Origin: Sphagnum compactum
Lineage: Eukaryota
NCBI GenBank assembly: GCA_965153455.1
Contig: OZ234493.1
Span: forward strand, 5,394,001-5,458,000
Direction: 5' to 3'
DNA length: 64,000 nucleotides
Shown: piece by piece, positions 7,140 through 55,300 of the stretch
How positions within the stretch are numbered: the first letter of the stretch is position 1
Layout of the letters: each line of letters starts with the position of its first letter
Translations under genes and position numbers: made by a program
Notes under the pieces: generated by a model
Seen by the model: only the letters and a program-made list of their open reading frames with translations
What the model was told of the DNA's origin: nothing
Databases searched by the model: none

Positions 7140-8720
7140 ATTAATATTATTTTAAATTATTTTAAATTATTTCACCTTAGATTATTTTAGTCTACTTCAC
7201 CCTAAGGTATTTTAATGTATATTTGGTTATTCTAAATTATTCCATCTTTTGTTATTTAAAATTATGTTACCAAAGGTTATTCTTAATTATTTTAAATTAT
7301 ATTTCAAGATTTTTAAATTATCTTTTTCTTAAACTATTTTAGGTTGTTCTAAAGTATTGTATCCTAGTTTAGGTTATATAGTTTATAATAACCCAAGATG
7401 TAATAACTTATAATAACTTAAGGTCGAATAACATGAAATAATTAAAATAACTAGAAACAAGATAGGGTGAAATGACTTAGATTAATAAAAGATAACCTAA
7501 TTAATTATAACATAGGGTAAAATACCTTATAATAAGATTAGATGGAACAATTCATGACAAATAATAACCTAAGGTGGAATAATCTAAAATGATTTAGAAT
7601 TACACAAGGTGGAATACTTTAAAATAATTGAAAATAATTTAAGGTAGAATAATTTTAAATAGCTTAAAATGAAATAATTTAAAATATCCAAAAATAACTT
7701 AAGGTAAAATAATTTAGAATAACCTAGTGTGAAAAAGCCTAAAATAACCCAAAATAGTCAAAAGTAGACTACAATAATCTAGAATGAAATAACTTGGAAT
7801 AATTGAAAATAAAATAAAATAAAATAACCTATGGTGGAATATCCAAGAATAGTTTAAAGTGGAATAGCTTATAATAACCAATAATAGCTTAGGGTGATTT
7901 AACCTAAAATAACTTAGGGCAAAATAATTTGAAAAAATGTAATAACCTACAATAGATCACGGTTGAATAACTTAAAATAGCCAAGGATAACATAAAGTAA
8001 AATAATCAAGGGTGAAATAATTTAAAATAGATTAAAATTTTTTAAGTAAAATAATTTAATATAGATTATTTTTTAATAAAATAATTTAAAATAACTAAGA
8101 AAACATAAAGTATAATAGTTTAAGATTAAGCTAAAATCTTAACTTGTGATACCTTGTAAATAACCTAAGGTATCAAACACTAGCTTAGGAATAACTCATA
8201 ATAATTTACATTAATTTAGGAATAAACCTAAAATTAGTGTAAGAACCTAACTTATGGTAACCCATACATAGACTTGGGTAGTTTATAGTAGCCTACACTA
8301 ACCTAGGAACCTAAGTCACAATAGCTTACACATAGACTTGGATAACTTACATTAGTTTAAAAATAAATTACAATAACTTATTAATATTTTAGGTTATGTA
8401 AGTATGTAAGGTAAAGTAACAAAGTAACATAGGTAGGAAAAATATTTAGGGTAGATATTTAGGTAGGTTAGGAAAAAAATTTGCATAATAATATGTGACG
8501 ATAAGTCATATCACTTATTTAAATAATGATTCAATGGTTAAAGACCTGCTCCTTAAACTTGAAGGTGAGGGAAAGTGAAAATTCAAACTTTTATACTTAT
8601 ATGTTAAGTTGATGGGTTTAAGTGGCCTAGATTTTAAACTTAGGTTAAGTGGTTTAGTTTAGATTCCTAGCTGCTTAGTTTAGGTTAAATAGCTAGCCTA
8701 ACTTAATTTTGGGTTCTTAT
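7140..8720. repeat. AT-rich low-complexity repeat built from AATAACCTAAGGT / AGGTTATT-like short units
   Basis: Dozens of degenerate units. Orientation is AGGTTATT...AAATTATT before ~7380 and AATAACCTA(A)GG after. TAGGT/ACCTA-rich tail to ~8720. Confidence 0.6.
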
Positions 8721-8939
8721 GTGCTTAGCCTAACTATGAACTTTAAGGTTGGCCTAATGAATTAACTATTAGTGAATGTGATTAATGAATTCATTTGTCC
8801 ATAGAAACTAGTCTCTATTCATTAGGGGTTAACCAACTTTCCCATGGGAAATTTGTTCAAGTTCATTCAAAATATAATCAAATACAATGTGAACTTGAAC
8901 ACATATTGGTGTAATGAATTGTTGAACGCTTGCCCATTA

Positions 8940-10230
8940 TGTTGGGTAAGGGGCTAAACAAGCTTGTTAGGTGAACTTGACGACACACTTGACATAAAAG
9001 TCTTGGGCAAGACCATTCCATGACATTAAGGTCTAATGTGGTATATTCCACAAAATAATAGTTAAAATTAGAAAAATTCAACAAACACATTTTGTTCATT
9101 ATTATGAATGTGGCTGTAACCCTAAATTAAAGCTTTTCCATGATTGGAGAATGATCATTGTTCAATTTGGGGTCACATCTACTTTTGGTGTTGGTTATTG
9201 AGCAAGAAGGAAAAGCTTTTGAAAGCATCAAAAGATCACAATTGAAGCAACTTTCAACGATTTATTATTTTGTTTGTCTTGCAAAATAGGAGCACTTTGA
9301 TTCAGAAATCTTTGCATGGTAAATAATATTTTTGAATGAATGTGTGATAGTTGGAGTTCCGTTTAGGATTTGATGTTGCTAAACCTAGCTAGAGCATGTT
9401 GGCATCGAATCTTGGTTTAATGACATTTTGTTTGTTTTGGAGATGGGCATTCTTGTGGTGCATGCGATTGTTGCGAAGTGAAGTGTGCCATGGACCTTGG
9501 TGTATAAGAAGGCGACAATGTTGCTAGTCACAAAGGAAGTGTTATATATACAAACCCTTAGTAAGAAAAATTGTAGAATCTTATTGTCTTCCACTACATC
9601 TTTAGGCATTGCATTTTACTTGTTTACTATAAGGATGCATCGGAGGAAGAGGATGACAATACTAGGCATTGCCAAGGTTTGGTGAGGAAATGTGGGGAAT
9701 GTTAAATTCTAGAATTTTTTGGGTAGATAAACTTTGGAGCATGCAATTGTGTACATTTAGTGTTTATGAAGTTCAAATGACCTTGTCGGTCTAAATCAAA
9801 TGTTGACTGTTAATTGGGTGCTTGTGAAATGGAGGTGTGGTAGTTGGTGCATGGGTATGAATTGATTGTGAAAATGTTGTACTTTAGATTTGTGACTTAG
9901 ATGACCTTGAGGGTTTGAGTTTGGTGGATTCATAATTGTGATGATCCTATGTGTAAGGGAAACATTGTGAAGTTATGTTATGGGTTTAGAGTAAGTATGT
10001 AAGAATGTCTTGATGGAGTGTGTTGACTAGATTCTCCTATTGAGCATTAAGAGGATTGGGTAATAAGGGTTTTATATCTTCATGATCAAACTTATGGACA
10101 TTGCTATCCTAGAAGGTGATTTCTCTTATGTCTTTACTTGTTTTTGACTTCTAGATAACTTCTGCTTGAGATTGTGGGATAGACTTTGGTAGAAACAATG
10201 TTGTGAGATAAGTTTAGTGTAGTAACCCTA
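8940..10230 (-). pseudogene. Decayed transposon ORF with an OTU-like cysteine protease remnant (possible N-terminal part of a Helitron/Helentron protein)
   Basis: Minus-strand fragments in OTU order across frameshifts: HCFYQSLS (10177-10200), DHEDIK (10070-10087), PLHIG (9945-9959), HNYEST (9923-9940). Weaker CFNC and SWNGLA fragments near 9250 and 9015. Confidence 0.4.
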
Positions 10231-36170: not shown

Positions 36171-36432
36171 GAAATTTCAATTAAAACTTATGAAATTTGA
36201 ATTAAGATCTCAAGTTATGTCTTATGAATTTCAATTAAAACTTATGAAATTTGAATTAAGATCTCAATTTATGTCTTATGAATGTCAATTAAAATTTATG
36301 AAATTTGAATTAAGATCTCAATTTATGTCTTATGAATGTCAATTAAAACTTATGAAATTTGAATTAAGATCTCAATTTATGTCTTATGAATGTCAATTAA
36401 AACTTATGAAATTTGAATTAAGATCTCAATTT
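36171..36432. repeat. 54-bp minisatellite, ~4.8 near-identical copies
   Basis: Unit TCAATTAAAACTTATGAAATTTGAATTAAGATCTCAATTTATGTCTTATGAATG. It produces the spurious repetitive ORF 36190-36447. Confidence 0.95.
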
Positions 36433-37974: not shown

Positions 37975-38630
37975 ATCATTAACCCATTGAAATATAAATA
38001 TAAGACTTCTTAAAATTTTATACATCCATTTCAAAAAATTATGGTGAATGTAAATGCAACTCTATTGGTAATGGATTTAACAACATTCAAATAAAATGAT
38101 TCAACACATGTGAAAATGTTAATAATTAAAAAGATGCGAAAAATTCACTAACCCATTCAAATATAAATGTGAGGCATTAAGTTGTTATGTGTGTTTCAAT
38201 ATATACTAGTAAATGCAATATGCAATGTTTGAACAATGGTTTCAATAAGTTCAAAGTGGATGATTCGACTCATGTAAAAATATTGATAATTTAATAAATG
38301 TGAAAAAATTCATTAAACCATTCAAATATAATTATAAAATATGGAGTTGCATGTGTTTTAATATATTATAATAAGTGTAAAATGCAAGTTGTGAATAATG
38401 GTTTTAATATTTCAAAAATGAATGGTTCAACTGTAATAATTGGAAAAATGTGAAAAATTCATTAATTCATTTCAATATAAATGTGAAAATTTTAATTATT
38501 ACATGTGTTTAATAAATTATGGTAAGTGTAAAATGCAACTGTTAAGTAATGGTTTCAACATGTTAAAAATTGATAGTTCAATTTATGTACCATGTTTATA
38601 GTTTAAAAATCATTAACCCATTATAATACG
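37975..38630. repeat. Degenerate ~150-170-bp tandem repeat, ~4 copies
   Basis: CATTAACCCATTCAAATATAAAT...GTAAAATGCAA...TAATGGTTT.AA...GATTCAAC...TGTGAAAAATT starts near 37977, 38146, 38311, 38460 and 38611. Confidence 0.8.
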
Positions 38631-38859
38631 TTGTGTAAATAAAGTTAAAAACTACCTCAATTTTCACGTTAATAATTCAAAATTCTTAAATAATTAAATA
38701 AGGTCCAAATTATACTCATAAATGAACAACGTAATGAACATAACAACTATGAATAATATTGAGCATTAATTAGTGTGACAAACCACTTGCAAACTTAAGA
38801 TGACTAAATGTATTTGAAATGTAATCAAATTAAACAATACTTGCAATGTGTGTGGGTGG

Positions 38860-39730
38860 AAAAGGACATGATTTCTTGTTGTGAACATTAATCCTTGTGC
38901 TTAATGTGTACTATGTGTTGTAATCAATTTAAATAAGAAATTGTGTTCTTGTTATAATTTGAAAGAATTTGAACCAATTTTAATATTTTTGGATATGGGT
39001 TTTATTGGTGTCCATGTAGGATGTATTTCATGTTCATACAAGTGCGCATTCCTTATTCTTGTGAGTTGACCACATTTGGGATTATTAAATAATATCCATA
39101 TGACTTTTTGTGAATTGAATAACTTTATTTGATCCTTGGAATATTCCATCCACACATTTATAGGACCATTATATGTTGCATAATTTATAGCACAAAGTTC
39201 AACCAATATATTAATTTTTATTTGAACCTTTGATTCCTTAACGTAGTCATGTTGTGAAGTTTGCATCATTTTGTAATTGAAATGATTGAAAACATGTGTT
39301 ATGATGTCTATCTTGTGCATGCAATATGAATACATCCCCTGCATTTCAAAAGAAAGCCAATTCATTATGTTTTTGTATTGCTTCATTCATGTAAGATAAA
39401 TATGAAAATTTTGGATCATTTAACAGTGTATTTTATTGATTATTTACAGTATCCAAATTTGATTGCAATTATGTAATAGTTTGAAATTGATTTAAGATGT
39501 TAATGAATTGTTCATCACTTGGCACATGACTTGCTTCAATTCATAACATTTATTTTTTTCCATCCAAAAATTTGGGACTAAACTATTAATGTTGTTTGCA
39601 TTAGTTTTGAAAACTCCTACATCACGAATTAGCTGATATTGATAAAAATCTTTAGTGATAATTACATTGAATTTTCCAAAAAGAATTGAGTGAATACGTG
39701 TGATCATTAGTAGAAAAATGTCAATTTGCA
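38860..39730 (-). pseudogene. Pif1-family helicase remnant (Helitron-type)
   Basis: ILFGKFNVIITKDFYQ (motif III-like), CYELKQVMCQ (IV), LVELCAINYATYNG, WTPIKPISKNIKIG, then ITRTQFLI* and TH*AQGL (V). Stops and frameshifts present. Confidence 0.75.
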
Positions 39731-40350
39731 TTTATAATTTGTGACTAAAAAATAATTGCATAAGTGAGGTTGCATTGAACCTTTAATCGCAAATGATGAT
39801 TTAGTGTGTTGTCAACACATTTTTCATGGATGAAACATACAATCAACATATATACACTTTCATCCTTTGACTAGTGTATAACATTTCCAACTACTAACCA
39901 TTCTTTTCTAACTAGTAAACAACCTTATCACTAAATGCCTTTTGTCAACATAATAATTTTTTGGGATTTTTTTTATTGAAATATTAATCTAGGCCATCCA
40001 TTATGGATGATAATAGATTTTGACACATACTTTAATCCGATTTTAACATGTGGCACAATTTGAAACTATATGTATATGACTTTATATTATATATGATGAG
40101 GAAAAATCAACATGGTCCAATTTCAACTATATACATGATGACGTTTGGATAAAGGAAAATTTGATACAAGGTGTTTGGAAATTATTTTTGATGAAAATTA
40201 AATTTTTATTGAAATCTTTATCTCAACCATCCATTATGATTATTCAATTTAGATGTATTTATATTGTGACACGTGGCATGGTCAAAAGTTGCTACGTGGC
40301 ATATTGATTGAATTTAAAAATAAAAATAAAAATAAATAATTACTTACATA

Positions 40351-41266
40351 TGTTGGAACCCTAACCTCGGGCTTGCGATCAAGGCAAGGGCTTACAAGGG
40401 TGCGAGCCAAGAGTGAAGCCCAAGAATCACATTTCATGCTCCCGTGATTGTAGGATAAAGTGAGGGAATGAACCTTCACACTCCCAAGTGAGCTCCCACT
40501 TCGGGAGTTGGACTCCTGATGGACTCCCGAATCTTCAACGAACAATTGCAAGAATCAAAATTCATTGGACTGAAGAGTTCTTTATACCATTGAAAAGTTC
40601 TTGGAACCTAGATGTCTAAAATGAGCTTGCCTGACCCATTCGGGTGCTTGGTACACAAGTTATATCCAAAAGAAAGGTCGAGATTCAAACTGCCAATTTG
40701 ACTCCCGACCACTAAAAGTCAAAAATCGCCCTGATTTATTTGCATGCAGGTGACATGCTACATATAGTTGAAAAGTTCTCGACAAGAGATACAACTTTGC
40801 TTTAGACCTCACCTCAATTGGAGGTTTGCATAAAGAGTTATGGGCCTCCAAAATTGTGGGAGTCCCAATTTCGAGAATTTCGGGACTACAACTTGGGAGT
40901 ACCGGGACAAAATGACATTTGGGTGCTAGCCCCGCGGCCAGGCATAGAGAATATTATAAGGGGGAAGGTGATGACTTCCCCCAAGTCTGAGCCGTGGTGA
41001 GTCTTATGAGTTCGTGTTTACCCGTGGTTTGTCCGTACACCAAAAGTGTTCCGACTATGCACTAACCAACTTGTTGTTTGGTTTGTGCCAGTCCATGTGA
41101 ATAATTGACCCAGTTGTCATTCATCCTAGTCCCATCCCGAAACTCCAGTGCACCCCACTACCCCTGAAATGTTGCGAACCAGGGAGCGCGCCCCAACTCC
41201 TTCTCCTTCCGTTGTTTTCACCTTTGGATTCGTAGTTGAGTCCATAAAGAGTTTAGTGCTGCATCA
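40351..41266 (+). mobile_element. Solo LTR (~916 bp) of an LTR retrotransposon
   Basis: Sharp GC-richer island in AT-rich DNA, starting TGTTGGAACCCTAACC and ending ...GTGCTGCATCA. No internal coding motifs. Flanks ACATA / ACAGG match only 3 of 5, so the TSD is degraded or absent. Confidence 0.65.
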
Positions 41267-41279
41267 ACAGGGTAAAAAC

Positions 41280-42950
41280 TATGTGCATAAAAAAATACCT
41301 ACCTCCTTAGGATACATATGTACCTAAGCTACTTACCTATTTGCCCACCTAGTTATCTAAGTAAGAAGGTAGGTAAATAGGTAGGAAGGTAGAAAGGTAG
41401 AAAAGTAGGTGATTTAAAAAGTAACAATGTAATTTATTTTTTAATTTTATGTTTTGCCTAAATAAGGTTAAACTTCTTTGAATTCATCCCAAATCACACA
41501 TGATTTTGAATGTGAAATCCAAAGAGAAGGCACCCTTTTTATAAGTTTTGTAAGATGACATTAGAATACAAAACATATTGGTCAAACCTTTTAGTTGCAC
41601 CTTAATCGCAAATTACAATTAAAAATGATTTTTCCACAACTTTTAAACTTGTAGATTTTAATTATACAACAAAATAGATAATAAACAAGTAACTAATTAA
41701 CTCACTAATTAATTAGCTAATAACTAATTACCTACCCACCCACCCACTTACAAGACTACTTACTACATATGATTGTTTAATTATTTTACTAATTTTTAAA
41801 GTAGTATTGATCATTAATCTTTCATAGTTTCTAATAACTAATCAATTGGTTCATTGCAATAAATCAAGATTAATGATAAATAATTTCAAGAAATAATTAT
41901 TTACTATCTAACTAATTAATTAAGTCACAAATCAATCATTTAATTTTTAAATATATTTAATTATAAAAATTAAATCTATAATAATAGATTTTTATTCATT
42001 CAATTACTAAAATGAAAATGATATTTTTACCTCAAAAAATGAACCTATTAAATTTATTGTCATCAACTAATTAAATAAAAAATAATTAGGTATTAATTGA
42101 TAATCTAACATAATAAACTAATAACTAATTGGTAATTCCTAAATATGAACTAATTAATATTTATTAGCTACTAACCATAATTCTTGATTTATAAATATTA
42201 ACTATTTCATAGTTAAATAGAACTAAACAAAATAGTAAATAAATTATTACTTTGAATTGAGGAAATATTAACTAATTAAAATTTTATGTATTAGACAAAA
42301 AAATAATATTATGAGTTTTATTTATTTATTAAGTTAAAGTTAAATCAGTTTTAATTAATCATTAATAGTTACCAGACAATTTAATTTGTGAAGAATTCAT
42401 TATTCATTGGCTGGCTAAATATTTACTAATTAGTAGTGATTAGCTATTAACCATAATTTTTGATTAACTACCTAAATCAATTATTGAAATATTTCAGAAC
42501 TAATCATATATTTGAGAATTAATTAAATAAGGAATAATTAGATAATTATCATCTGAATGATTATTTAAAATAATTATTTATTTCATAGTAACTAAATATT
42601 TAATAATATTTAATAAATTATTGATAAATCGTTGATTGATAAATATTAAATATAGTATTAATTTATAAACTTGTTGATAGAAATAAAGTAATTTTTAATT
42701 AACTAACTATTATTTCATATTTCCGAATTAATCAATTAATCAATATGAATAATTCATGAATATTGATTAATTATTTTTTGAAGTAACTAATAAATAATAA
42801 CTGATTATTATTATTATTATCATAAATAAAATTAAATGATTAATTGAGATTATTTTAGTTCATATTTTATACTAACTAATGAATTATTTGAAAATGATAA
42901 TTGTTAATTAAGTAATGTTCATTAAATACAACGATTATATCATATTAATA
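41280..42950. repeat. Extremely AT-rich low-complexity tract (TAATTAATTA / AACTAAT-rich, with an ACCT/AGGT block at its start)
   Basis: Composition read directly; no ORFs in the track. Confidence 0.6.
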
Positions 42951-43420
42951 TGACCCTCACTACTATAATACCTTAATAAAGATGGTATATTTTGAAATGG
43001 ACCATACAAAATCAAAATTATTTTCAATCCAATATGCCCATAATTTATAGTCAAATATATGTTTAATATATTTTGAACATAATTTAAATGCACTTCAATA
43101 TGTTAAATAAGCTTAATAGATGTTTAATATACCTTGAATAAAATCTATATAATATACTTTTGATGTAGTTTAGAAAACCCTGGTGTACATTAGTAAATGT
43201 ATAAACACATTATAATATGTAACCAAATTGCAACTAATTTTGTAATAAATGAATCCAAGAAGTTAGTTAATATGGAAGGATGTGTAATTTAATAGTCGCA
43301 TTATAATTGTAAAAATATTCGTAAAGTTTAAAAGATGGTGACTAATTGTAAAAATGATAAAACAAAGTTGCAAATAATAAGTAGTTGCAAATTGAATGGT
43401 TACATATTACAAGATTTCTA

Positions 43421-43720
43421 CTAGTGATTGGTGGCGAAAAAGAACATCACTTGAAGTGACCCCCCATTGGTGGCGAAAAAAAAATCATTTGAAGTGATTC
43501 TCCATTGGTGGTTAGAAAAAAAAAAACCACTTGAAGTGACCCACCATTGGCGGCAAAAACAAAATACTTGACCCACCATCAGCAACGAAACGAAAATCAT
43601 TAGAGTTACCCCATTGGAAGGGGGAAAAAAATCACTTAATTGACCCCCATGGGTTGTGAAAAAACATTCCATAAACTAACCCCATTGGCTAGGAGAAAAA
43701 CATTCACTTGACCTAAAAAA
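43421..43720 (-). repeat. ~38-bp subterminal tandem array ending in CTAG|T on the minus strand (possible Helitron 3' end)
   Basis: ATTGGTGGCGAAAAAAAA.CACTTGAAGTGACCCCCC repeated ~7-8 times and decaying rightwards. Minus strand ends CGCCACCAATCACTAG|T. Confidence 0.6.
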
Positions 43721-43949
43721 CCCCCTTGGGTGGTTAGTGGCCAAGGCTATCTTTTGATAATCAATATCTCATATAGCCTAGGAAATTTGAACTCACGTCC
43801 TCACTATTGATCCTTGTAAAGCCCTTTCAATGTATATTAATGAACCACTTTATCTTAAGTATACTAGTGTGTATTTATTTGAGCTTTATTCCATTAATTT
43901 TTCACAATTTTGTTTTATGAACTTAGGGTTTTTATTTTTTAATTTGTGA

Positions 43950-45070
43950 GCTTGGGGTTCTGTAGATTTGTTCTTATCAACTTTTGAAGTCCTCCATTTG
44001 TTTTCTTCGAGTTTTTGTTAATTTTGGAGAGTTTTGGGGTCTTCAATTTTATTTTCTCAACTTTGGATAGTTTGGGTTTTAATTCTTCTTTTGGTGTGAA
44101 GTTTGGGGGTCTTTGGTATTGATCTTATGAACATCCCCAATTTTCAATTTTCTTTTTTTTAAGTTTGGGAGTTTTCGATTTTCTTTTTGTCATTTTGGAG
44201 GGTCTTTGGATTTCATTTGGTGAACTTTGGGGGATTTTTTGTTTTTTGTTTTAGAAAAAGTTCAAGGGTTTTTGAATTTCATTTTGTGAATTTTGGGGAA
44301 ATTTTTGTTTTTAACAAATTTCGAGGGTCTTCAATTTTCTTATGACATTTGGGGGTCTTTAATGTTTTTTTTTGGTGTGAAGGTTTGGGGGGGGGGGGGG
44401 TGTGTGTGGTGATGCTTTGCTCTTGTGATTTTTGAAGGTTTTCTATTTTAGTATTTTGAAGTTTAAGAGTCTTCAATTTTTCTTCTTGTAATTTTGGGGG
44501 TCTTCAATATTTTTGTGTGAAGTTTCACAAGGGGGGAAACATGGTATCTTCTTGTGAACTCTCAAGGTTTTTTGTTTTTGTAAATTTTAAAATTCCAAAA
44601 TTCTCAATTTTCTTCTTATCATTTTGGATAAGAAATGATATTGAAGACCCAACTTCAATTTTTTTGTGTGAAGTTTCACAAGGGGGGAGATCGAGTATTT
44701 GCCTTTCTTTTTGTGAAATTTGAAAAAATTTTGTTTTCATATTTTGAAACTTTGGAGTTTTCAATTTTCTTCTTGTCATTTTGGGGTCTTCAGTTTTTTT
44801 GTGTGAAGTTTCACAAGCAAGGAAACAAGGTATTTGCCTTCTATCTTGTGAACTTTAATTGAAGGTTTTTTGTTAAATGGTACTCTAAAATTCCAAAGTC
44901 TTTAATTTTTTCCCTGTCATTTTGAAAGTTCTACATGGGGGGAAATAATGTTGGGGGCATTGTTTAAAAATTTGGGGTTTTCAACTTTGTTTGATGGAGT
45001 TCAAGGATCTTCGACTTTGTTTCTGGGAATTTTAGAGGTTCCCAAATTATTTTCTAGTGAACTTGAACTT
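43950..45070. repeat. Degenerate T-rich repeats (TTTTGGGGGTCTTCAATTTT; GTGTGAAGTTTCACAAG ~145-bp period x3)
   Basis: GTGTGAAGTTTCACAAG at ~44515, 44666 and 44801; many GGGGTCTTCAATTT variants. Confidence 0.7.
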
Positions 45071-47199
45071 GTTTTCCCACTTTGTTTACATCATTTAACT
45101 AATGTCTTTGCAAAACTAGTTCATTTCACGAGCAAAAATTTAAAAAAAATTAATATCACTTGCATTGTTCCTACCCATGGCAATATCCTAAGTCAAATTT
45201 GAGCACTAAAATTTTGTTTCATATGTTTTCAAGATCACCAATGAAGGTCTTTTTTTTCTTTTGAAAAACAAATGGGGTTTTGAGGTGGATGGGATGATTA
45301 CATACCTAATGGTGTTAGGCTATTAAAATAAAATAAAGATTAAAGTAAAGGATTTAAGTTGTGAATGTATGGATTATTGAAAATTTGAAGGAATAAATAT
45401 CAATTTTGAGCAAATCTTTGAATTTTTTCACAACTGCCAATTCTATTTTTTTATATTTGTTTATCCCTAACTTAAAAATTGTTGAACATTGAAAAAACAC
45501 CAAATTCCCAAAATCCCACCTTATAGGCCTCCTTTTATGAAAATGTCTTATTCATATTTTGTCTTCAATTATGGGAATTGTTCAACATTATTTCAGATTT
45601 TAATAATTTGTGCTCCGAATTGATGAACTAGAACTTGAACAATGTGTCAGATAGACCAAATGAAATAGCCACCATTCCATAGTTTGTTCCCTTGAAGGCA
45701 TAGCCAATAAATTGTTGCTTGCCATGGAAATTGCTAATGAAGTGCAAATATGGCTCTCGATTCATAGCAAAATTGGAAGTCGTTTAAAACCCCCCAAAAC
45801 ATAACTTTTGCATCTTTTACATGACTTGAAATATATTTCTATATTAATGTTCCATTAAAAAGCAAGTATTATGTAATAATCTTTTATTTTTGTGTAAAAA
45901 TAAATAAATTTGTGTACATAAGATATAAATGTTTTTTCAAGTTAGGAAGAAGATTAATATACATAAAACAAATGGATGATACTATGGACAATAGATAGTT
46001 GATCATTAGTTAATCCATGTTTAGTTCCTTTTTTTAAAATGATATTCAATAATTAATTCACAACAATATTCATCCAAGGCTAAGCTATCATTCAAATGGA
46101 AAAGGTAAATTTCTTAATTGTTCTACAAGTATTCAAATTCAATTTCTTTTAACCATGTATTTATTTGTGAGGTAGGTTTAGTTGACCCCCACTTCTTTGA
46201 TCATTAGATTAAAAACCATTGGAATTTTAAAATTTTCCCAACCAATTCTTCAACATAATATCCGACTAGTAATTATGTAACATTTCCATTCACATCTATT
46301 TCAAGTTCATTTTCTTTTGAACTTGGCTCTTTTTGAAATTTTCAAGTCACTAGCAAAGGCAAAAGTAAATTATTAGTGAAGATGATGTTCATTTGACACT
46401 CTAAAACTTTAATTTATTTTCTTTCATGTTAAATAGATATACATTGTAGTTTGTTTACTACATTATAACATATATGTGTCAAAGTAATTTTTTGTACAAT
46501 TTGATTTCCTATATATATATTTTCAAGTATTATTGGTTTGTTTAAAATCCTTTAAAAGAAAAAGTTTTAAATTTAACTTCTTAATCCTTCAAATTTCATT
46601 TTCAAATCCTTTATGCAATCCTTCAAAATAATTTTCAAGTCCTTTGCTAACCTTTTTTTTATCTTATTTTCCAATCTTTATAGCCACTTATTCACAATTT
46701 TACAAATATTTTAAAATCATTAATTCGTTTTTAGAATTATTGTAAAATGACTTCCAACAAAATCATCAAGGTTTCATTAGCTTAATAAATTTGATTTGAC
46801 TATTTATGATATTTTAAAGTGAGATTCGAAATTGACATTGAAAGTAACTCTTTGGGGGGGAATTTTTGCATGGTGGTGACAAATTTTTTGTGTAAATTTG
46901 AAAAAATTCCCCCAAAAACACTTACCAATCAAAACCACAATTTATTCTTACAAAATTAACAAAAACCCTAATTGGAAATTTTTAAAAATATGTTTTCATA
47001 TGGACAAGAACCCATTCTTGAGTTTAACAATTCCTTAAGTGGTTAAACATATATAATTGTTAAAATTCAAATCATTATATATCCAAATGTCCATACATAC
47101 CAATGAAGACCATTATAATATTATGTTCCAAACTAATCAACATATCAATATTCAACTTGATTCCAAATATAATAAAATTCTTCAATTGATTAATTTGAC

Positions 47200-49450
47200 T
47201 ACATTTTGTTATCTATATATGAGAATTAAAAAACTTTATCATTTGCATATAGCAAAAGAAAAATTGTTCTTAACTTGTTTCTCACATGTTGAACATTTCA
47301 TTAACACAAATAATCATTCATATGAAATACATAAATTGAAAAAAATTGAACATTGAACTATAAAACTACAAGGCAACATTTCAATAGGCTATTTTTGAGA
47401 AATAACAAATCTTCATCTTAACTCTTTGCTCCAAAAAATATCAAATGCACCAATATATCAATGCTTATTTTGTGAAAGACTACATGTTTCCATGGATAAA
47501 TAACATCACTTTTAAATCATTTACAAGTTATGACCTTTCTAAACATTTAGGTGACATATTCCTCATGTTTTTTATATGTGGTGCATGCTTAAACCCAAAT
47601 GATTAATAAAAGGGAAAATCCTTTGTACCAAGTGCCAAATTTCTATATATTTTTAGGAACTTAACCATGACTTTTGTTAACTGTTTACAACACTCAAAGA
47701 AAGGTTAATTTCATTGCATTGAACTTTTGCACAAATTTATAAACTACATATACAAAAGAATTGACATCAAATCCATTTTTTAAAAAAAATATCTACAATT
47801 TTTTATAAGAAAAGCTACATTTAACATTAATGGGTCCACCATACGCTTTTTTTTCATATTTAAGAAATGAATCATATGCTAATCTTGAAAATTTGAGTTC
47901 ACAAAATTTGAATAATTTAATATATCAATATAAACAACGTTGGTTGATTGTCATAGATGAAATACTCTTTTGGTTGAAACAAACATGTTTAATGCCATTA
48001 GTAAAAAAAATTGATCAATAAAACAAATTCATAATAAGTTTTTTTTGTTGGGCTTAATGTTGTAATCTTAGTTTGTGATTTTTCCCAAGCATCATTAATG
48101 ATAGACAAATGGCCCATGTTTAAAAAGTTGAATGATTGGCTTGAAGTTTTAGTTCCAAATGTTTGTCATCATCACATAAAGTGTTATGAAGTACACATGG
48201 TCATGCATCAAAATGATATGAGATTCATCCATTCACTTAATAGATTTTGAAACAATATATAACACCCAAATAAACATCAACACATTGAACAATGCATGTT
48301 TACTTGAACAAATGGCTCCAAAAGACCACATTTATTTTACACAAACACAACAACATTTGTTCATAATCATTTAGTATTCCAAAAAACAATAGGTCAAAAT
48401 TTCATCCTCTTAACTATAGATTGTTCAATGCCATTCAACTAACGTTTACCAAATGACCCCAATAAAATTGCAAGGTTCCACCGTTACAAATACAAGAAAA
48501 CATCTTCATCGAATTGTGTGCAAGAAATTATGCAAGTTACGATGAACTTGTTAATGGAATTGATGGTTTGTTCAAAATTACAACTTGTATGAATAATAAG
48601 TCATATATTTGGATTGACTTTTTGAATCTTAATTAATAGGTTGTCACATACAACATAAAAATGCATTTTTGTACACATAAAACAAAACATAATCAACATG
48701 GACAACCATAAAAGAAATACCATTAAAGAAATACCATTAAGCAAATGTCATACATAATTAATCACTTGAATACAATTTCCAGATCAACTACTTGTTGGTA
48801 AAATACACCAATCCCAAAAGGTTGTATTAGATGAAATGACATTTGACCCTATGTCTATAAACAAACATCAATCGAACCATATAACCTTCTTTCATGTCTG
48901 TAAATTGTACCTCTTTAACCCATTACAAGATTCAAAATTTCATGAAATTGATGCATGTGTCATTCATGAAATGAAAAAGCCCATGACATTTTTAAATTAA
49001 GAACTATTGTTTCCCAGGTTAAAAAATATTGTTATTCACATTTATCATTCAAAGTCTTAATATTAATTTTTTGCTCCAACATTATTAAGATGTTCAAAAT
49101 GATCATAAGTTAGAAAATCTCATTTTGATAAGAAAAAACATAATCATATATATATTTGACAAACATGACACTATAATGATGGACAATAATTCAATGAAAC
49201 TCTACAAAATCATATGAAACAATGACAAACACTAGATCAAAATTTATTATAAATACTTTTAATTCTAACACCAAAAAAATTGTACATGTTATTTCTTTAC
49301 ATAAATCTCATTCTATCTCTCTTACAATTTTTTGGGAAATGTTACATGGATTCATCATTATACCTCATTAACTTCATGTCCCACAAATATTCTAGGTGAC
49401 TTCAACATTGATATGCTTATGATTTCAAGATACTTCATCTAATTAAACTA
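47200..49450 (+). pseudogene. Decayed Pif1 helicase plus apurinic/apyrimidinic (EEP) endonuclease ORF, Helentron/Helitron2-like
   Basis: In order: KEKLFLTCF (linker), KATFNINGST (47811), WLIVIDEIL (47941, Walker B), FVGLNVVILVCDFSQA (48044), CYEVHMVMHQNDMRFIHSLNRF (48182), ELCARNYASYDELVNGIDG (48511), IQFPDQLLVGKIHQSQ (48770). Then the endonuclease-like IIQSLNINFLLQHY*DV (49044), IVHVISLHKSH (49279) and CPTNILGDFNIDML (49377-49418). Confidence 0.75.
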
Positions 49451-51889
49451 CAACAATGACTTTTAGAAAATTCAATTTCAAACAAGTGTAGTCACAATAA
49501 CATGTACTAACTTGTAACGCTTGCTTGGTTTTTTCATGTTTTGAAGTTGTAATTTAATTTGATGTTGAAATTGTAAGATTTGTTTATATAATTTTATTTA
49601 ATATATCATGGGAACATTTAAATTAATTTGAAATTAACCTAATGAGTAAAAAATAATAAAAGCACTCATCAAGCATTGTAACGTTTATTTTTAAGTAATA
49701 AAAGGATTTGTAAATGGATTTTTTTTTTCAAAATGACATTTTTTGCCAAATTTTTAACATAAACCTTAATAAAATATTATGAATTTTTTTTTAAATTTAA
49801 AACAAAATTGAAATTTTTTTCAAAAATATTCTTAAAATATTTTTCAAAAAGCAGTCACAAAAGCAATAAAAAAATAAGCAAATTTGGCTCATGTTATCCT
49901 ATTTGCACCCACACTCCATATCCATATTTCCATAACAATACAAAATGGTCTCATTTGTTAAATATGATAAGTACATGTATAAAATTGATATATATGCACC
50001 AATGTCCATAGCAATTAATTCTTGGTAAGTGTACTAGAAGCTTACTACCCCAAATATCATAAACCCATGTATATATATTGCATTCAAATTTCCTAACAAT
50101 TTGCCCAATGTGTTTAATTAACAATATAAAATTTTGTTTTCACTTGAGCACACAAATGTACTATATATACATTCCTATACTATTTCATACTCAATACCTA
50201 GACCACATCACTCTCCTCACTGGGCTTGTTATGAATAGGGTTTCAACTTGCTCATGTTTAGGGACCTAGCTAGTATTGCATTACACTAAAAGTGAAATTG
50301 GAAAAATAAAAAATAAATTCAATTTATGTTGAGGTCATCCATGTATTATGATATTCCTTGAATCTTTCAAACAATACAAAGAATGCACGGCCCCAATTTC
50401 TTTAACCATTTTAATTACGATTTTATTGAATTTTGTAATCTCAATAATATTGGTCAATATACAATAACTCATCATATTGTCACTCCTATATACATGCATG
50501 TATGGTCACGATGCACACATATTCCCAAGCTCACAATCATGTTAATTAATTGGTCCATAGAAATACTCTATTTGATTAGATCCACATTGAGTGATGTATT
50601 CACCGAGATATGAGATATTTCGGTTGAATGCATATAACCATCTTGAGTGATTTGGTATGTGTATCATGTTATGGCACATTGTGATCTATGCCCAAAAACT
50701 AGCCTTTAAACTCATCTTTATTGCAAGCACAATTAAAAAATAAAAGAAAAATAAAATCATGTATAGATAACAAATTGTAAAGAGCTATGAGAATTTTCAT
50801 ATTATATTTGGAGGATACAATCTCAAGTGTATTTTTCACTTCCGTGAAAGGCGAATATTTTTGAAAAAAATGCAAAGGTTCCTTTGGAGTGAGCGAGCAT
50901 TTCAGTTTTCAAAATAAAAGCAAAATGTGCATCCTCTTATGTTTGTTTTTTTCATGGGAAAAATGGAAAAAATTACATTTATGTGGGGAAACACCCACTC
51001 CTTGGGCTTTGCCTAACTCCATACCCTAAGACCTCTCATCTCAAAATGAATGAAAGTGATGAAAATTATGATTAGGAATTGCATAACATTTGGGAGAAAA
51101 TGGATGAAACTAAGGATTCGGAACCACCGGTTGACTGAGATGACATTGGAAAAATTATGGATGAAAATATTGAACACAAGCGCCAGGTTGAACTTATGGA
51201 TGAACATCAATCAGGCTGCCAGGGGACACAACAAACGTGAATCACAGAAAAAGAAAAAGTGGACGCATTGGACAAAGAACACAAAGGAAATGGATGACCT
51301 TTTGAAAGAAAGTGGATGAGGAGGATTTACTCGAAATGAAAAAAATTTAGGAGGAGAGGTGATATTTATTTTTGGACAAATTTTGTCGTTAATTCGACCC
51401 AAAAATTGGGTAAATTTTGGAGAAAAATGTGTTTTTTGTTGTCTAAAACCAACTGATTTTGTTATTTCTCCAGAAAGAAATGGCGAAATTTTCAATAACA
51501 CAAAATTGAAAAAAACCTACAAGGCATGGAAAGAGAGAGACAGAGGAAAAGAAAAAAACGGATGAGGGGAAATGGATGGAAGTGGGAAGGAAAATGGATG
51601 GATGTGAGAAAAACTGACGCGAGGACGGATGCACAAGTGGATGAGAAATGGATGCAAGTGAGCAACAACGTGGGGATCACAAATGGATGAGAAGAGAGCG
51701 GCCACGAGCACTGCGAACAAGCTTGTGCGCAGACTGCATGGCCAGGGAGGAACCGCCGTCGTTGTAGTTTGTCGCTGCTGTTGCCGCTCCAGGCTCCGTC
51801 TTCATCTTCCTCGATCTGCCTGGCTTCCTGCCTGCCTTCCCTCCCATCGCTCCTCTTTCTTTCTTTCCTTCCTTTGCATCTCCCAATTC

Positions 51890-52336: not shown

Positions 52337-55300
52337 ATGAAGTGGAGCATGGCAGGATCGCGGTTCATTGCTCTGCTGCCTTATTGTCAGCGTAGAGTAG
52401 GAGCGAGAGCAGCCAGATGCAGCACGATGTTGGCGACGTCGGAAGAATCTCAAGTGCTAAAGCTTGGACAGGCATGGAAGCGCGCGTATCATCATCATCA
52501 GGCGTCGCCGGTGAGCACTGTCGGAGTTCAAGATGGCAATGCGCCTTCCATTTCCATTGGTGAGAATCATCCCCTGAGCTTCTTGAGGTTGGCGCTAAAA
52601 CTCTTTCTGTGGATCTGGATCCCTTTTCTTCGGGAGATTTTTGCAGGGTTTAGTGTTCGCGCATGTCGTCACGTGGACTGCCTTTGAATTCCATCTCTGT
52701 CTCTGTCTCTCTCTGTGAGTAAACCTAAACAAGGTCGGATTGCTCAATTGTCCAATGGCAATTGCTGTAGAGAGGTCATAATCATCTCTGGACGATGGAT
52801 TTTGGAGAACAACTTGTTTATTTTCTTTCATATCAGCATCGACAAGTGTCAAACCCTAACTGCCAGGACATGCGGATCTTTTGATGCATGCAGAGGGAAC
52901 TGTAATGCTTGCTTGCTGTAACAGCCCTATGAACCCCTCTATAGCCATGTTTTTCAGGGTTTCAGATTGCATGTTTTTTTCTGTTCTTGATTCTCAGTTT
53001 CTGGAGCTCCTAGGACATATCTGTAAAGCTCCACACACTCTACACACTCTAGAGACACTCCATCAGCATTCTTGCATTGGATGCTTTGATGGTGCAAAAT
53101 TTCTGACATCGGAGGAATTGTTATGGGGTTTGCAGGTCACCAAGTGCAAAGCTCTTCAATGGAAGCAGCAGCAGTCTCGGAGTTGTCAGATCCAGCACCA
53201 CCAACACTGGCAACCCTTCAAAGTCAAAGCTTGTCGTCAACTGAAGCAGCAGCCACAGAGTTGTCAGCTCCAGCAACGCCAACACTGGCAGCCCTGCGAA
53301 GTCGTCTATCCAGTGGGGGTCCAAGCCTCATGGACTTCATAACAAGCTCCAGTTCCAGTCCAGAGGGATACTCTGTTGAAGTGGGCACTAAAAAGGCTCC
53401 GAAACCCAAGCCTGAGTGGATGAAAATGGTGATCCCAGGCGGTGACAAGTATGCAGCTATTAAGTCCAAGTTACGGGAGCTGAAGCTCAACACTGTGTGT
53501 GAGGAGGCCAAGTGCCCTAATATCGGGGAATGCTGGACGGGTGGTGAAACTGGGACTGCCACAGCAACAATCATGATACTTGGAGACACTTGCACTCGCG
53601 GTTGCCGGTAAAAAGTCAATGATGCCAGGCTTTAGATCATTTCACAAGAGCTTGTTGATGCCATCCTTTCATGTGCTAGTGAGATGCTATTTGAGCTTAG
53701 GGTTTATGGTTATGGTGCAAGAAGCAATGGTGACATAAAATGCCATCATCAGTATTTGTAACCAGACCACTTTTGAGGTTTGCTTGACAAGAATGGGATG
53801 GTGTAGGTTTTGTGCAGTTAAAACATCACGGGCACCACCTCCACCTGACCCAGAAGAGCCCAAGAAAGTAGCTGAAGCAATAGTAGCATGGGGCCTTGAT
53901 TATGTTGTGCTCACCAGTGTGGACCGCGATGATATGTCTGACCAGGGCAGTAACCACTTTGCAGAAACTGTGAGGCACCTGAAGTCCCGCAAGCCTTCCA
54001 TGCTGGTGGAAGCCTTAGGTCTCTCTCTGTCTCTCTCTGTCTCTCTCCTTCCTCTTCTTCTTCTTCTTGAAATTCAGAGTATTGCAGCCTTTCAAGTGAT
54101 TTTCTGTGGGAATTCAATATGTCTTGTTTGGTTTTTTCCTTCCATGTGGTCCTGCTGAATGTCAAGTGTGACATATGATGCAGTTCCGGACTTTCGGGGG
54201 GATTCTGAGTGTGTAGAAAGAGTGGCCACATCAGGGCTCGATGTGTTTGCTCACAATATTGAGACAGTTGAGGAGCTTCAAGCCTCTGTGCGTGATCACC
54301 GTGCCAACTTCAGTCAATCAATTCACGTGTTGCAAATGGCCAAAGAGATGGCACCCCCTGGCACGCTCACTAAAACCTCCATCATGCTTGGGTGTGGGGA
54401 AACTCCTGTCCAGGTGATGAACATTCTTTGACTGAGTATTGGAATTTCAGCCAAGCAGGGTTTAGGAGTTCAAGCAGGACAGAATGTTCTCATAATTTTC
54501 CTGCTTGACATTCAGCATGTTAGCACATCATCACACTGGAACAATTTGTTCGTGTACAAAAGCAGTCTTCCATAAGTAGCATTTTTATCCTGTAGTTCAT
54601 GTATCAATGCCCAAAAGGAATGACTGAGTCGTGGAATGGTGATGTGTCTCTCTCTGTATCCATTCCCTGTTTGTAAGTGGAAGTCTTTGTGACAGTGGGT
54701 GATAGTGGATGGATATAGGTGGTGGAGACAATGAGGAAAGTGAGGGAAGCTGGAGTGGATGTGATGACATTGGGCCAATACATGCGCCCTACTAAGCGAC
54801 ACATGCCTGTCTCCGAATATATCACTCCTGAAGCCTTTGAAGAGTATCGTAAAATAGGGTTGGAAATGGTGAGCCTTTCCCCAACTCTCTTCTTTTCTGG
54901 CTCCAATCCAGTCTTCCTTTTTTTACCGTGCGTCCTCCTCTCTCTTAATGTCTTAGCAATAATCAAACTGTATGTGATGACAATTACAAACGAAAGCTTC
55001 CAGTCTCTTCTCTCCCCATTTGACAATTTCACTTCCGTTCCAAAGGTGTGGTATTGGCTAGAAGGGTTATTGCTGAGGCTTCAACTCAGTTCTTGTTTCC
55101 AACTCAATATTGAAGCTCTGAACAACTTGGTGCTCACCTTTAGCTCTTCTATCATCCTTCCTCCTGTTTTTCACTTGTGTGTGGTTTTTGGGTCTCTTGT
55201 TGTCATCTGTTGCCTCCATGCCTCACTGGTTGGGACCATTTTTTTTTGGTGTAAGGTTTTGCTCAGCATCCTTGAGATGTATTTGTAGAGAAAAGTTTAC

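What the first reader, a model, noticed from the sequence alone, without database searches (positions are those of the whole stretch)
47200..49450. Fossil Pif1 helicase fused to an AP endonuclease: an endonuclease-bearing (Helentron-like) rolling-circle element in a land plant
Seen: collinear Pif1 motifs (KATFNINGST, IVIDEI, GLNVVIL..DFSQ, CYE..VMHQND..F...LNRF, LVNG.DG, IQFP..L....IHQSQ) followed in the same orientation by EEP/APE motifs (SLNIN, VISLHKSH, ILGDFNIDML). Established: canonical angiosperm Helitrons encode Rep-Hel, often with RPA; Rep-Hel with a C-terminal APE typifies Helentron/Helitron2 elements, best described outside land plants. Inference: this genome hosted an endonuclease-carrying rolling-circle family, the best candidate here for an undescribed system.
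Basis: partly seen in the sequence, partly recalled or inferred. Interest (0 to 1): 0.72.

Follow-up and report, generated by a model that had tools for sequence, protein, structure and literature searches.

The report
Dead endonuclease-bearing Helentron in a moss
This is a broken copy of a rolling-circle transposon whose helicase is fused to a DNA-cutting endonuclease (a Helentron); the type is best known from animals and its wider group is already on record in mosses, so this is a well-supported new plant member of a known kind rather than a new system.

Summary
Confirmed. All quoted motifs lie in order at 47811-49418 (+). No single frame hits Pfam, but a frameshift-aware alignment runs through helicase and endonuclease against a coral Helentron protein (score 191; 12 shuffles at most 49). 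The copy is dead: at least 9 stops, 13 frameshifts, a ~2.7-kb deletion of Rep and Walker A, and a ~430-bp insert splitting the endonuclease, which ends near 50118; the 3' end is 50228, followed by TT. Sister copies give the whole element, about 12-13 kb: OTU-like, DUF6570, Rep, Pif1, endonuclease, 11-bp subterminal inverted repeats and a 3' stem-loop. The endonuclease follows the helicase at 45 of 60 loci, never otherwise. Both domains group with animal Helentrons, not with LINEs or canonical Helitrons, and both were under purifying selection between five subfamilies (pN/pS 0.32-0.58; 0.94-0.98 within one). No intact copy was seen. 'Undescribed system' fails: HELIANO (PMC11417382) reports HLE2 in 13 land plants, including Sphagnum, and land-plant hosts in the endonuclease-rich subgroup. 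My searches found no text spelling out an endonuclease-bearing moss family. Earlier scan notes shown concern canonical Helitrons only.

The parts
46570..47449 (+). Decayed upstream part of the element; true 5' end not found
   Evidence: Matches sister copy L196/L002 at 70-84% (46570-46607, 46700-46845, 46993-47275, 47209-47694); no match further left above shuffle level
47450..47746 (+). Remnant of the cysteine-rich region and start of DUF6570 (PLYQVPN, FAQIYKL)
   Evidence: tblastx to family majority; coordinates; DUF6570 over Pfam cut-off in sister copies L180 and L181
47746..47751 (+). Deletion junction, out of frame: about 2.7 kb lost (rest of DUF6570, all of Rep, helicase Walker A)
   Evidence: Family positions ~1675 joined to ~4405; Rep protein P0001 scores 36 on window 40001-47800 and 369 on sister L194; one contig of another sample of the same organism spans 45655-49573 without gaps
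47749..48898 (+). Pif1-family helicase fossil, from motif Ia to motif VI
   Evidence: PIF1 E 3.4e-17 in sister L183 and 4.2e-23 in P0270
49044..49482 (+). AP-type (EEP) endonuclease fossil, N-terminal two thirds; about 20 residues missing around the catalytic glutamate motif
   Evidence: Exo_endo_phos_2 E 1.3e-7 in sister L180 and 1.2e-9 in P0270
49483..49913 (.). Later ~430-bp insertion of a very high-copy AT-rich repeat, splitting the endonuclease
   Evidence: Absent from 4 of 4 sister copies aligned; summed contig depth 2237-7090 against about 20-40 beside it
49914..50118 (+). C-terminal end of the endonuclease (HIW-like and terminal D-x-H motifs)
50185..50228 (+). Decayed 3' terminus ending CTTG, followed by TT at 50229-50230
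   Evidence: Same end in L005, L006, L014 (CTTG|TT) and L004 (CTTA|TT); 2 of 7 rows aligned (L003, L008) do not show it
38845..39725 (-). Second Helentron helicase fossil in the window, of another subfamily; no Rep or endonuclease found beside it
   Evidence: Score 431, 40% identity to P0270 residues 95-383; groups with L206/L207/L212; Rep and endonuclease probes score 45-46, chance level

Best explanation
The locus is a dead, internally deleted copy of an endonuclease-bearing HLE2 (Helentron) transposon. Shown: the family has the order OTU-like, DUF6570, Rep, Pif1 helicase, AP-type endonuclease, with helicase and endonuclease in one reading frame, inside about 12-13 kb bounded by 11-bp subterminal inverted repeats, a nested 5' inverted repeat, a 3' stem-loop and T-rich ends; it diversified into at least five subfamilies while both domains were kept by selection; afterwards copies decayed neutrally. 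From established knowledge of Helitrons: Rep nicks and joins a single strand, the helicase peels it off, and the element is pasted at a TT site without target duplication. Inferred: the endonuclease did useful work during transposition, most likely nicking or processing the T-rich target (my odds about 55%; alternatives are removal of abasic sites or 3' blocks on the single-stranded intermediate, or a purely structural role). Inferred: this copy lost Rep after insertion or in one event, then took a later repeat insertion; it does nothing today.
For: Domains in single sister copies, by reference. A 280-aa stop-free stretch in L175 joins helicase motifs V-VI to the endonuclease; the majority of 20 copies gives one 887-aa open stretch over both domains; P0270 is a natural 677-aa stop-free Pif1+EEP protein, 56% identical to the L175 piece. 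Linkage 45 of 60, other arrangements 0 of 60. Trees: moss copies plus P0270 form one group (98) with sister P0055 (100 and 99), inside animal and unnamed Rep-helicase-endonuclease proteins, for helicase and endonuclease alike. Ends. pN/pS 0.32-0.58 in 20 of 20 subfamily-by-domain comparisons, all bootstrap upper limits at most 0.72; single copies against their own majority 0.94 (helicase) and 0.98 (endonuclease) in family A. No RNA reads over 45837-49510, depth 8-17 over the host gene at 53185-54500.
Against: No Pfam hit in the window's own frames. Rep and the 5' end are missing from this copy. The Rep hit in sisters is below Pfam's cut-off (27 against 28.9 bits) and OTU is weak (E 0.02). The 20-copy majority still breaks several times upstream of the helicase (at least one break at a run of one base), so one frame from OTU to endonuclease is inferred, not shown. 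The within-family control is 0.76, not 1, for the window's own, more mixed subfamily, and codon alignment guided by a protein favours low pN. Both trees are quick trees without bootstrap and without endonuclease-free Helitron2 or host Pif1 sequences. No empty site was examined. The role of the endonuclease is untested, here and in print (PMC8788227). The RNA result is one poly(A) run, 12% read.
Confidence: 0.93

Rival explanations
1. A LINE endonuclease inserted by chance behind a Helitron helicase at this locus.
For: AP-type endonucleases are common in this genome (142 Pfam matches); the Helentron endonuclease is thought to come from a non-LTR element originally (PMC4067079).
Against: Same order and strand at 45 of 60 loci and no other arrangement; in-frame fusion; the endonuclease groups with Helentron endonucleases (96) and away from 14 reverse-transcriptase-linked ones; none of the sister loci that I recognised is among the 142 generic matches (by eye, not computed).
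Confidence: 0.01
2. A canonical Helitron (HLE1) of this genome that captured an endonuclease independently.
For: Canonical Helitrons are abundant here, some with open frames up to 1638 aa.
Against: The helicase lies far from six HLE1 copies of the same genome; DUF6570, a marker of HLE2 in PMC11417382, is present; the ends are TT and subterminal inverted repeats, not TC and CTRR.
Confidence: 0.02
3. Pseudogenes of a host Pif1 gene and a host AP endonuclease, or a domesticated fusion that still serves the host.
For: P0270 matches cellular Pif1 structures better (E 1e-30 to 1e-22) than the HLE1 transposase Helraiser (E 1e-13).
Against: At least 150 dispersed matches per probe, transposon ends, Rep in sisters, no introns in the aligned domains, many stops and frameshifts, no RNA in one run.
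Confidence: 0.01
4. The element is a Helentron, but its endonuclease was an inactive passenger in mosses.
For: In the window's subfamily, family A and P0270 the terminal D-H motif has one extra residue (D-Y/F-H), unlike animal Helentrons and subfamilies C and D. HELIANO regards such domains as non-essential.
Against: Purifying selection on the endonuclease is as strong as on the helicase, including between D-x-H subfamilies A and W (0.38 for both); the N, E, GDFN and DH motifs are kept in P0270.
Confidence: 0.15

Closest known systems
Helentrons of animals and fungi (Thomas et al. 2014, PMC4067079; HLE2 subgroup b of Li et al. 2024, PMC11417382)
   Same: Rep-helicase with a fused C-terminal AP-type endonuclease, DUF6570, OTU-like domain upstream, subterminal inverted repeats a few bases from the 5' end, a 5' inverted repeat nested in the subTIR, a 3' stem-loop, T-rich ends, deletion derivatives; both domains fall among coral, sea-cucumber, mollusc, acorn-worm and lancelet proteins in the trees.
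   Different: Plant host; a separate long-branched group (about 25-33% identity to animal proteins over the helicase end and endonuclease); part of the group has D-x-H in place of D-H at the end of the endonuclease; all copies examined are dead.
HelenSM92 and the other 555 HLE2 of Sphagnum magellanicum (PMC11417382)
   Same: HLE2 in a moss, short terminal inverted repeats, TT sites.
   Different: HelenSM92 is described with a GIY-YIG domain and is 16-19 kb; no AP-type endonuclease is mentioned in the text or legend. Its domain figures are images that I could not see, so overlap with this family is not excluded.
Helitron-5_SMo of Selaginella (Repbase, classed HLE2 in Table S1 of PMC11417382)
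   Same: HLE2 in a land plant.
Canonical Helitrons (HLE1) of the same genome
   Same: Rep plus Pif1 helicase, rolling-circle mechanism.
   Different: Distant helicase; TC and CTRR ends by definition (recalled and PMC4067079); several have long open frames, whereas the Helentrons examined have none.

Membership tests
Helentron (HLE2 with endonuclease) | Rep domain (HUH and two tyrosines) upstream of the helicase, in the family | tested here: met
   Helitron_like_N E 6e-6 (27 bits, cut-off 28.9) in L184; LGPPTFF, SEHDHG and YCTSYMTK motifs in the family majority; Rep protein P0001 scores 369 on own-subfamily copy L194
Helentron (HLE2 with endonuclease) | Rep domain in this copy (autonomy) | tested here: not met
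   Deleted at 47746-47751; P0001 scores 36 on window 40001-47800. The copy is a non-autonomous remnant.
Helentron (HLE2 with endonuclease) | Pif1-family helicase | tested here: met
Helentron (HLE2 with endonuclease) | AP-type endonuclease fused in frame to the helicase C-terminus | tested here: met
   280-aa stop-free piece of L175; 887-aa open stretch in the 20-copy majority; P0270; linkage 45 of 60
Helentron (HLE2 with endonuclease) | Transposase in the HLE2 clade; DUF6570 present | tested here: met
   Helicase tree, 69 rows; DUF6570 over cut-off in 2 of 2 pieces chosen for it and at 50 places in the genome. No Rep tree was built.
Helentron (HLE2 with endonuclease) | Subterminal inverted repeats, nested 5' inverted repeat and 3' stem-loop, in the family | tested here: met
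   Family A: 5' TTGTT-GGCTCTGTCCT-ACAGAGGC in 20 copies picked from 41 matches for starting near the same position, 13-20 of 20 per subTIR base; 3' AGGACAGAGCC then GTGGC-AGA-GCCRC. Own-subfamily copies L006 (3') and L196 (5') carry the same repeat.
Helentron (HLE2 with endonuclease) | Both termini in this copy | tested here: inconclusive
   3' end recognisable but decayed (50228); no 5' repeat within two mismatches in 44001-47300
Helentron (HLE2 with endonuclease) | Insertion at TT without target duplication | tested here: inconclusive
   TG|TT at 12 of 13 3' ends; T before the 5' end in 17 of 20; no empty site was compared
Helentron (HLE2 with endonuclease) | Accessory OTU and RPA-like genes (optional) | tested here: inconclusive
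   OTU E 0.02 in 2 of 3 pieces; upstream frame: 0 of 4 pieces hit Pfam, Atlas first hits are plant OB folds at 0.79, a lead only
Helentron (HLE2 with endonuclease) | Rolling-circle transposition activity | not testable with these tools
   No intact copy among those examined; needs a transposition assay
Canonical Helitron (HLE1) | 5' TC and 3' CTRR ends, A|T insertion, HLE1 transposase | tested here: not met
Non-LTR retrotransposon (LINE) | Endonuclease at the start of ORF2, followed by reverse transcriptase | tested here: not met
   The frame stops right after the endonuclease and the element ends 0.1-0.7 kb later; tree

The most novel reading that the evidence does not exclude
Mosses have carried their own old lineage of endonuclease-bearing Helentrons, distinct from the animal lineages, in which the endonuclease stayed under selection through at least five subfamilies and in part changed its terminal catalytic motif to D-x-H; this has not been spelled out in print, and stop-free members such as P0270 suggest that recently active versions survive in some related plant, which would give a plant system for asking what the Helentron endonuclease does.
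Probability: 0.45. Interest if true: 0.55.

Novelty: new member of a known kind. Interest (0 to 1): 0.4.

Why it matters
Helentrons were long thought absent from land plants (PMC4067079), and the 2024 survey that found HLE2 in plants did not state in its text whether the plant elements carry the AP-type endonuclease. This family shows that they can, with full Helentron ends, at chromosomal loci, so contamination is not the explanation. Purifying selection on the endonuclease equal to that on the helicase bears on an open question: the domain's function is undetermined (PMC8788227) and it has been called non-essential (PMC11417382). The locus itself is an inert fossil.

Tried and rejected
Frame-by-frame Pfam scan of the window: 0 of 9 frames hit PIF1 or EEP. 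Pfam PIF1 and Helitron_like_N searches of the genome returned only canonical Helitrons among the 150 scored, so they miss this family. Search for longer relatives with a Rep piece: 1 of 216 candidates. Search for an intact copy: none among 20 family copies of 10 kb and 11 further stretches; longest natural stop-free piece 281 aa; the searches are capped, so an intact copy elsewhere is not excluded. 5' end of the window copy: not found. Metagenome scan with P0270: 62 pattern matches, none confirmed; a second scan with an alignment could not be made. Names for the unnamed proteins P0001, P0055, P0132 and P0270 could not be looked up, so their hosts are unknown. Run list: no RNA holder listed; small-share rows, the moss metagenomes among them, were not used unless laid. 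The careful helicase tree did not finish; the quick tree was used. No Rep tree, no test of one clade, no structure prediction and no absolute dating were done. The host was not identified by my own test: moss is taken from earlier scan notes. Literature searches; bioRxiv supplements were closed and figure images of PMC11417382 (Fig. 8B, S8, S16) could not be seen, and these bear on the novelty claim.

Full report
Observation. The window is G000:C1:5394001-5458000 of a 382-Mb assembly. With stops read as X, 0 of 6 frames of 46500-49801 hit PIF1 or an EEP family. A frameshift-aware protein-to-DNA alignment against three intact Rep-helicase-endonuclease proteins scored 103, 144 and 191; 12 shuffles each reached at most 44, 51 and 49. 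Two of the three alignments cross from helicase into endonuclease; one of these proteins, P0213, is named as a coral protein. Against P0270, a 677-aa stop-free Pif1+EEP protein from an unnamed metagenome contig, the copy scores 796 at 43% identity with at least 9 stops and 13 frameshifts.

Anatomy of this copy. Similarity to a sister copy begins near 46570. 47450-47746 holds the start of the DUF6570 region; the sequence then jumps, out of frame, into the helicase at 47749. In family coordinates about 2.7 kb are lost, with all of Rep and Walker A. Of the sisters checked, L009 and L013/L194 keep this region and L002 has a different deletion, so the deletion is not a family trait. A ~430-bp high-copy repeat at 49483-49913, absent from 4 of 4 sisters, splits the endonuclease, whose end lies at 49914-50118. 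The element ends at 50228 with CTTG, followed by TT, as in 4 of 6 sisters aligned. The 5' end was not found. In one poly(A) RNA run (12% read) depth is 0 over 45837-49510 and 8-17 over the host gene at 53185-54500. A contig of another sample of the same organism spans 45655-49573 with 11 differences and no gaps; contigs of organisms B and C (one run each) cover 45987-47512 at roughly 8-10% difference, which fits a shared, old insertion, though the left border is unknown and their cover of the junction is not shown.

The family. DNA search with the copy gave 23 matches, the longer ones 65-76% alike. Protein probes from better copies gave 150, 150 and 149 matches, the first two at the cap. Of the 60 best helicase loci, 45 have an endonuclease match downstream on the same strand within 3-3.5 kb and 0 have another arrangement; the 138 endonuclease loci used come from a capped list, so 45 is a lower bound. 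Twenty 10-kb copies show a shared element reaching at least 6 kb upstream. Pfam on single stop-free pieces gave OTU (E 0.02, weak), DUF6570 (2.5e-8), Helitron_like_N (6e-6, just under cut-off), PIF1 (3.4e-17) and Exo_endo_phos_2 (1.3e-7); 7 of 21 pieces hit nothing and 4 more only unrelated families at chance level. One natural 280-aa piece joins helicase motifs V-VI to the endonuclease, and the majority of 20 copies has one 887-aa open stretch across both domains. Upstream the majority still breaks several times, so a single frame of about 2100 aa is inferred. An own-subfamily copy (L194) carries the DUF6570-Rep region. A further upstream frame may be an OB fold (Atlas 0.79, a lead; 0 of 4 pieces hit Pfam).

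Ends. In family A the 3' end is sharp: AGGACAGAGCC, then a 5-bp stem-loop GTGGC-AGA-GCCRC, then TTG; TG|TT is seen in 12 of 13 copies, two of them degenerate. The 5' end reads TTGTT-GGCTCTGTCCT-ACAGAGGC in 20 copies chosen from 41 matches for starting near the same position. GGCTCTGTCCT is the reverse complement of the 3' subterminal 11-mer, and CTCTGT/ACAGAG is an inverted repeat nested in it. This is the layout that Thomas et al. describe for Helentrons (PMC4067079, passages). Pairing 5' and 3' matches gives 12.0-13.2 kb for three long copies and 3.4-8.9 kb for three shortened ones; the 3.4-kb copy keeps part of the helicase and the endonuclease, like the window copy. Own-subfamily copies carry the same repeat.

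Relationships. In the helicase tree (69 rows; quick IQ-TREE, SH-aLRT only, careful search unfinished) the 24 moss rows and P0270 form one group (98), sister to the unnamed P0055 (100), inside a group of animal and unnamed Rep-helicase proteins (98, 100); six canonical Helitrons of the same genome lie far outside. The endonuclease tree (72 rows, FastTree) repeats this: moss group 98, sister P0055 99, Helentron group 96, with 14 reverse-transcriptase-linked endonucleases apart. Limits: references were gathered from relatives of this family, the HLE1 rows are near-copies, endonuclease-free Helitron2 and host Pif1 are missing, two other DUF6570 loci (L203, L204) were left out for scoring too low, and no clade test was run. 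I therefore name no donor and no direction of transfer.

Selection and age. Between majority codons of five subfamilies, pN/pS is 0.32-0.58 for helicase and endonuclease in 20 of 20 comparisons, with dS about 0.8 or more. Single copies against their own majority give 0.94 and 0.98 in family A but 0.76 in the window's more mixed subfamily. Fifteen family A copies differ by 13.7% on average (range 11.3-16.4%). So both domains were kept while the subfamilies diverged, and all copies examined have since decayed; none of 31 stretches held a frame over 281 aa for this group. Family A, the window's subfamily and P0270 have one extra residue in the last endonuclease motif (D-Y/F-H); subfamilies C and D and the animal proteins have D-H.

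How it worked. Shown: anatomy, linkage, ends, descent, selection, death. From knowledge of Helitrons (recalled; PMC8788227 passages): Rep nicks and joins, the helicase unwinds, one strand is transferred. Inferred: the endonuclease acted in transposition, most likely on the T-rich target (about 55%), otherwise in repair-like processing of the intermediate or structurally. Its function is stated to be undetermined in PMC8788227.

What is known. Thomas et al. 2014 found Helentrons absent from most plants and could not exclude contamination for the few hits (PMC4067079, passages). Li et al. 2024 (PMC11417382; passages, sections 21-23, supplement parts 1-2 and table rows; preprint passages) report HLE2 in 13 land-plant species, 555 in Sphagnum magellanicum, with an example carrying GIY-YIG; the endonuclease is enriched in subgroup b, whose hosts include land plants. 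Seven full-text searches showed no paper, by listing, describing an AP-endonuclease-bearing moss family, but the figures that could show it were not visible, and subscription journals and Repbase were not searched. Earlier scan notes: the 8 shown of 22 concern canonical Helitrons and call the host a peat moss, which I did not test; a sequence look-up found nothing.

Verdict. A real, dead, Rep-deleted copy of a plant Helentron family; a new member of a known kind. Interest 0.4: the selection on the endonuclease and the complete anatomy in a moss are useful to transposon specialists, but the group is already recorded in mosses.

Noticed in passing
window 38845-39725 (-): Second Helentron helicase fossil from a different subfamily, 8 kb from the first and on the other strand; no Rep or endonuclease beside it.
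   Followed up: yes
window 49483-49913: AT-rich ~430-bp repeat of very high copy number (contig depth about 100 times the background) inserted in the endonuclease; no clear terminal repeats or target duplication seen.
   Followed up: partly
L015 (G000:C13:9123420-9126974), minus strand, locus 2149-3183: A helicase C-terminus, then a stretch that looks like a Ulp1/C48 peptidase (label recalled; no Pfam hit), then the endonuclease: possibly a subfamily with a protease between the two domains.
   Followed up: partly
L175 (G000:C3:603501-613500), element strand 8555-10000: Two more endonuclease remnants of the D-H type follow the first one, suggesting nested or tandem Helentron ends.
   Followed up: no
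L202 (G000:C653, a 34-kb contig), L203, L204: Other DUF6570 elements unrelated to this family; L202 has a 615-aa frame with STPR repeats and DUF6570 and may come from a non-plant passenger in the assembly. Many top endonuclease matches also lie on small contigs.
   Followed up: partly
G000:C1:15864299-15867657 (-) and G000:C1:31192567-31199406 (+): Shortened family A copies of 3.4 and 6.8 kb with both ends; a group of matches starting at position ~120 of the 5' probe may mark a short non-autonomous family.
   Followed up: no
G000, many places: Canonical Helitrons with open frames up to 1638 aa at several loci, so HLE1 looks recently active while the Helentrons are long dead.
   Followed up: no
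window 36173-36432 and 37976-38609: A 54-bp tandem array at 98% match and a 150-160-bp tandem array next to the second helicase fossil.
   Followed up: no
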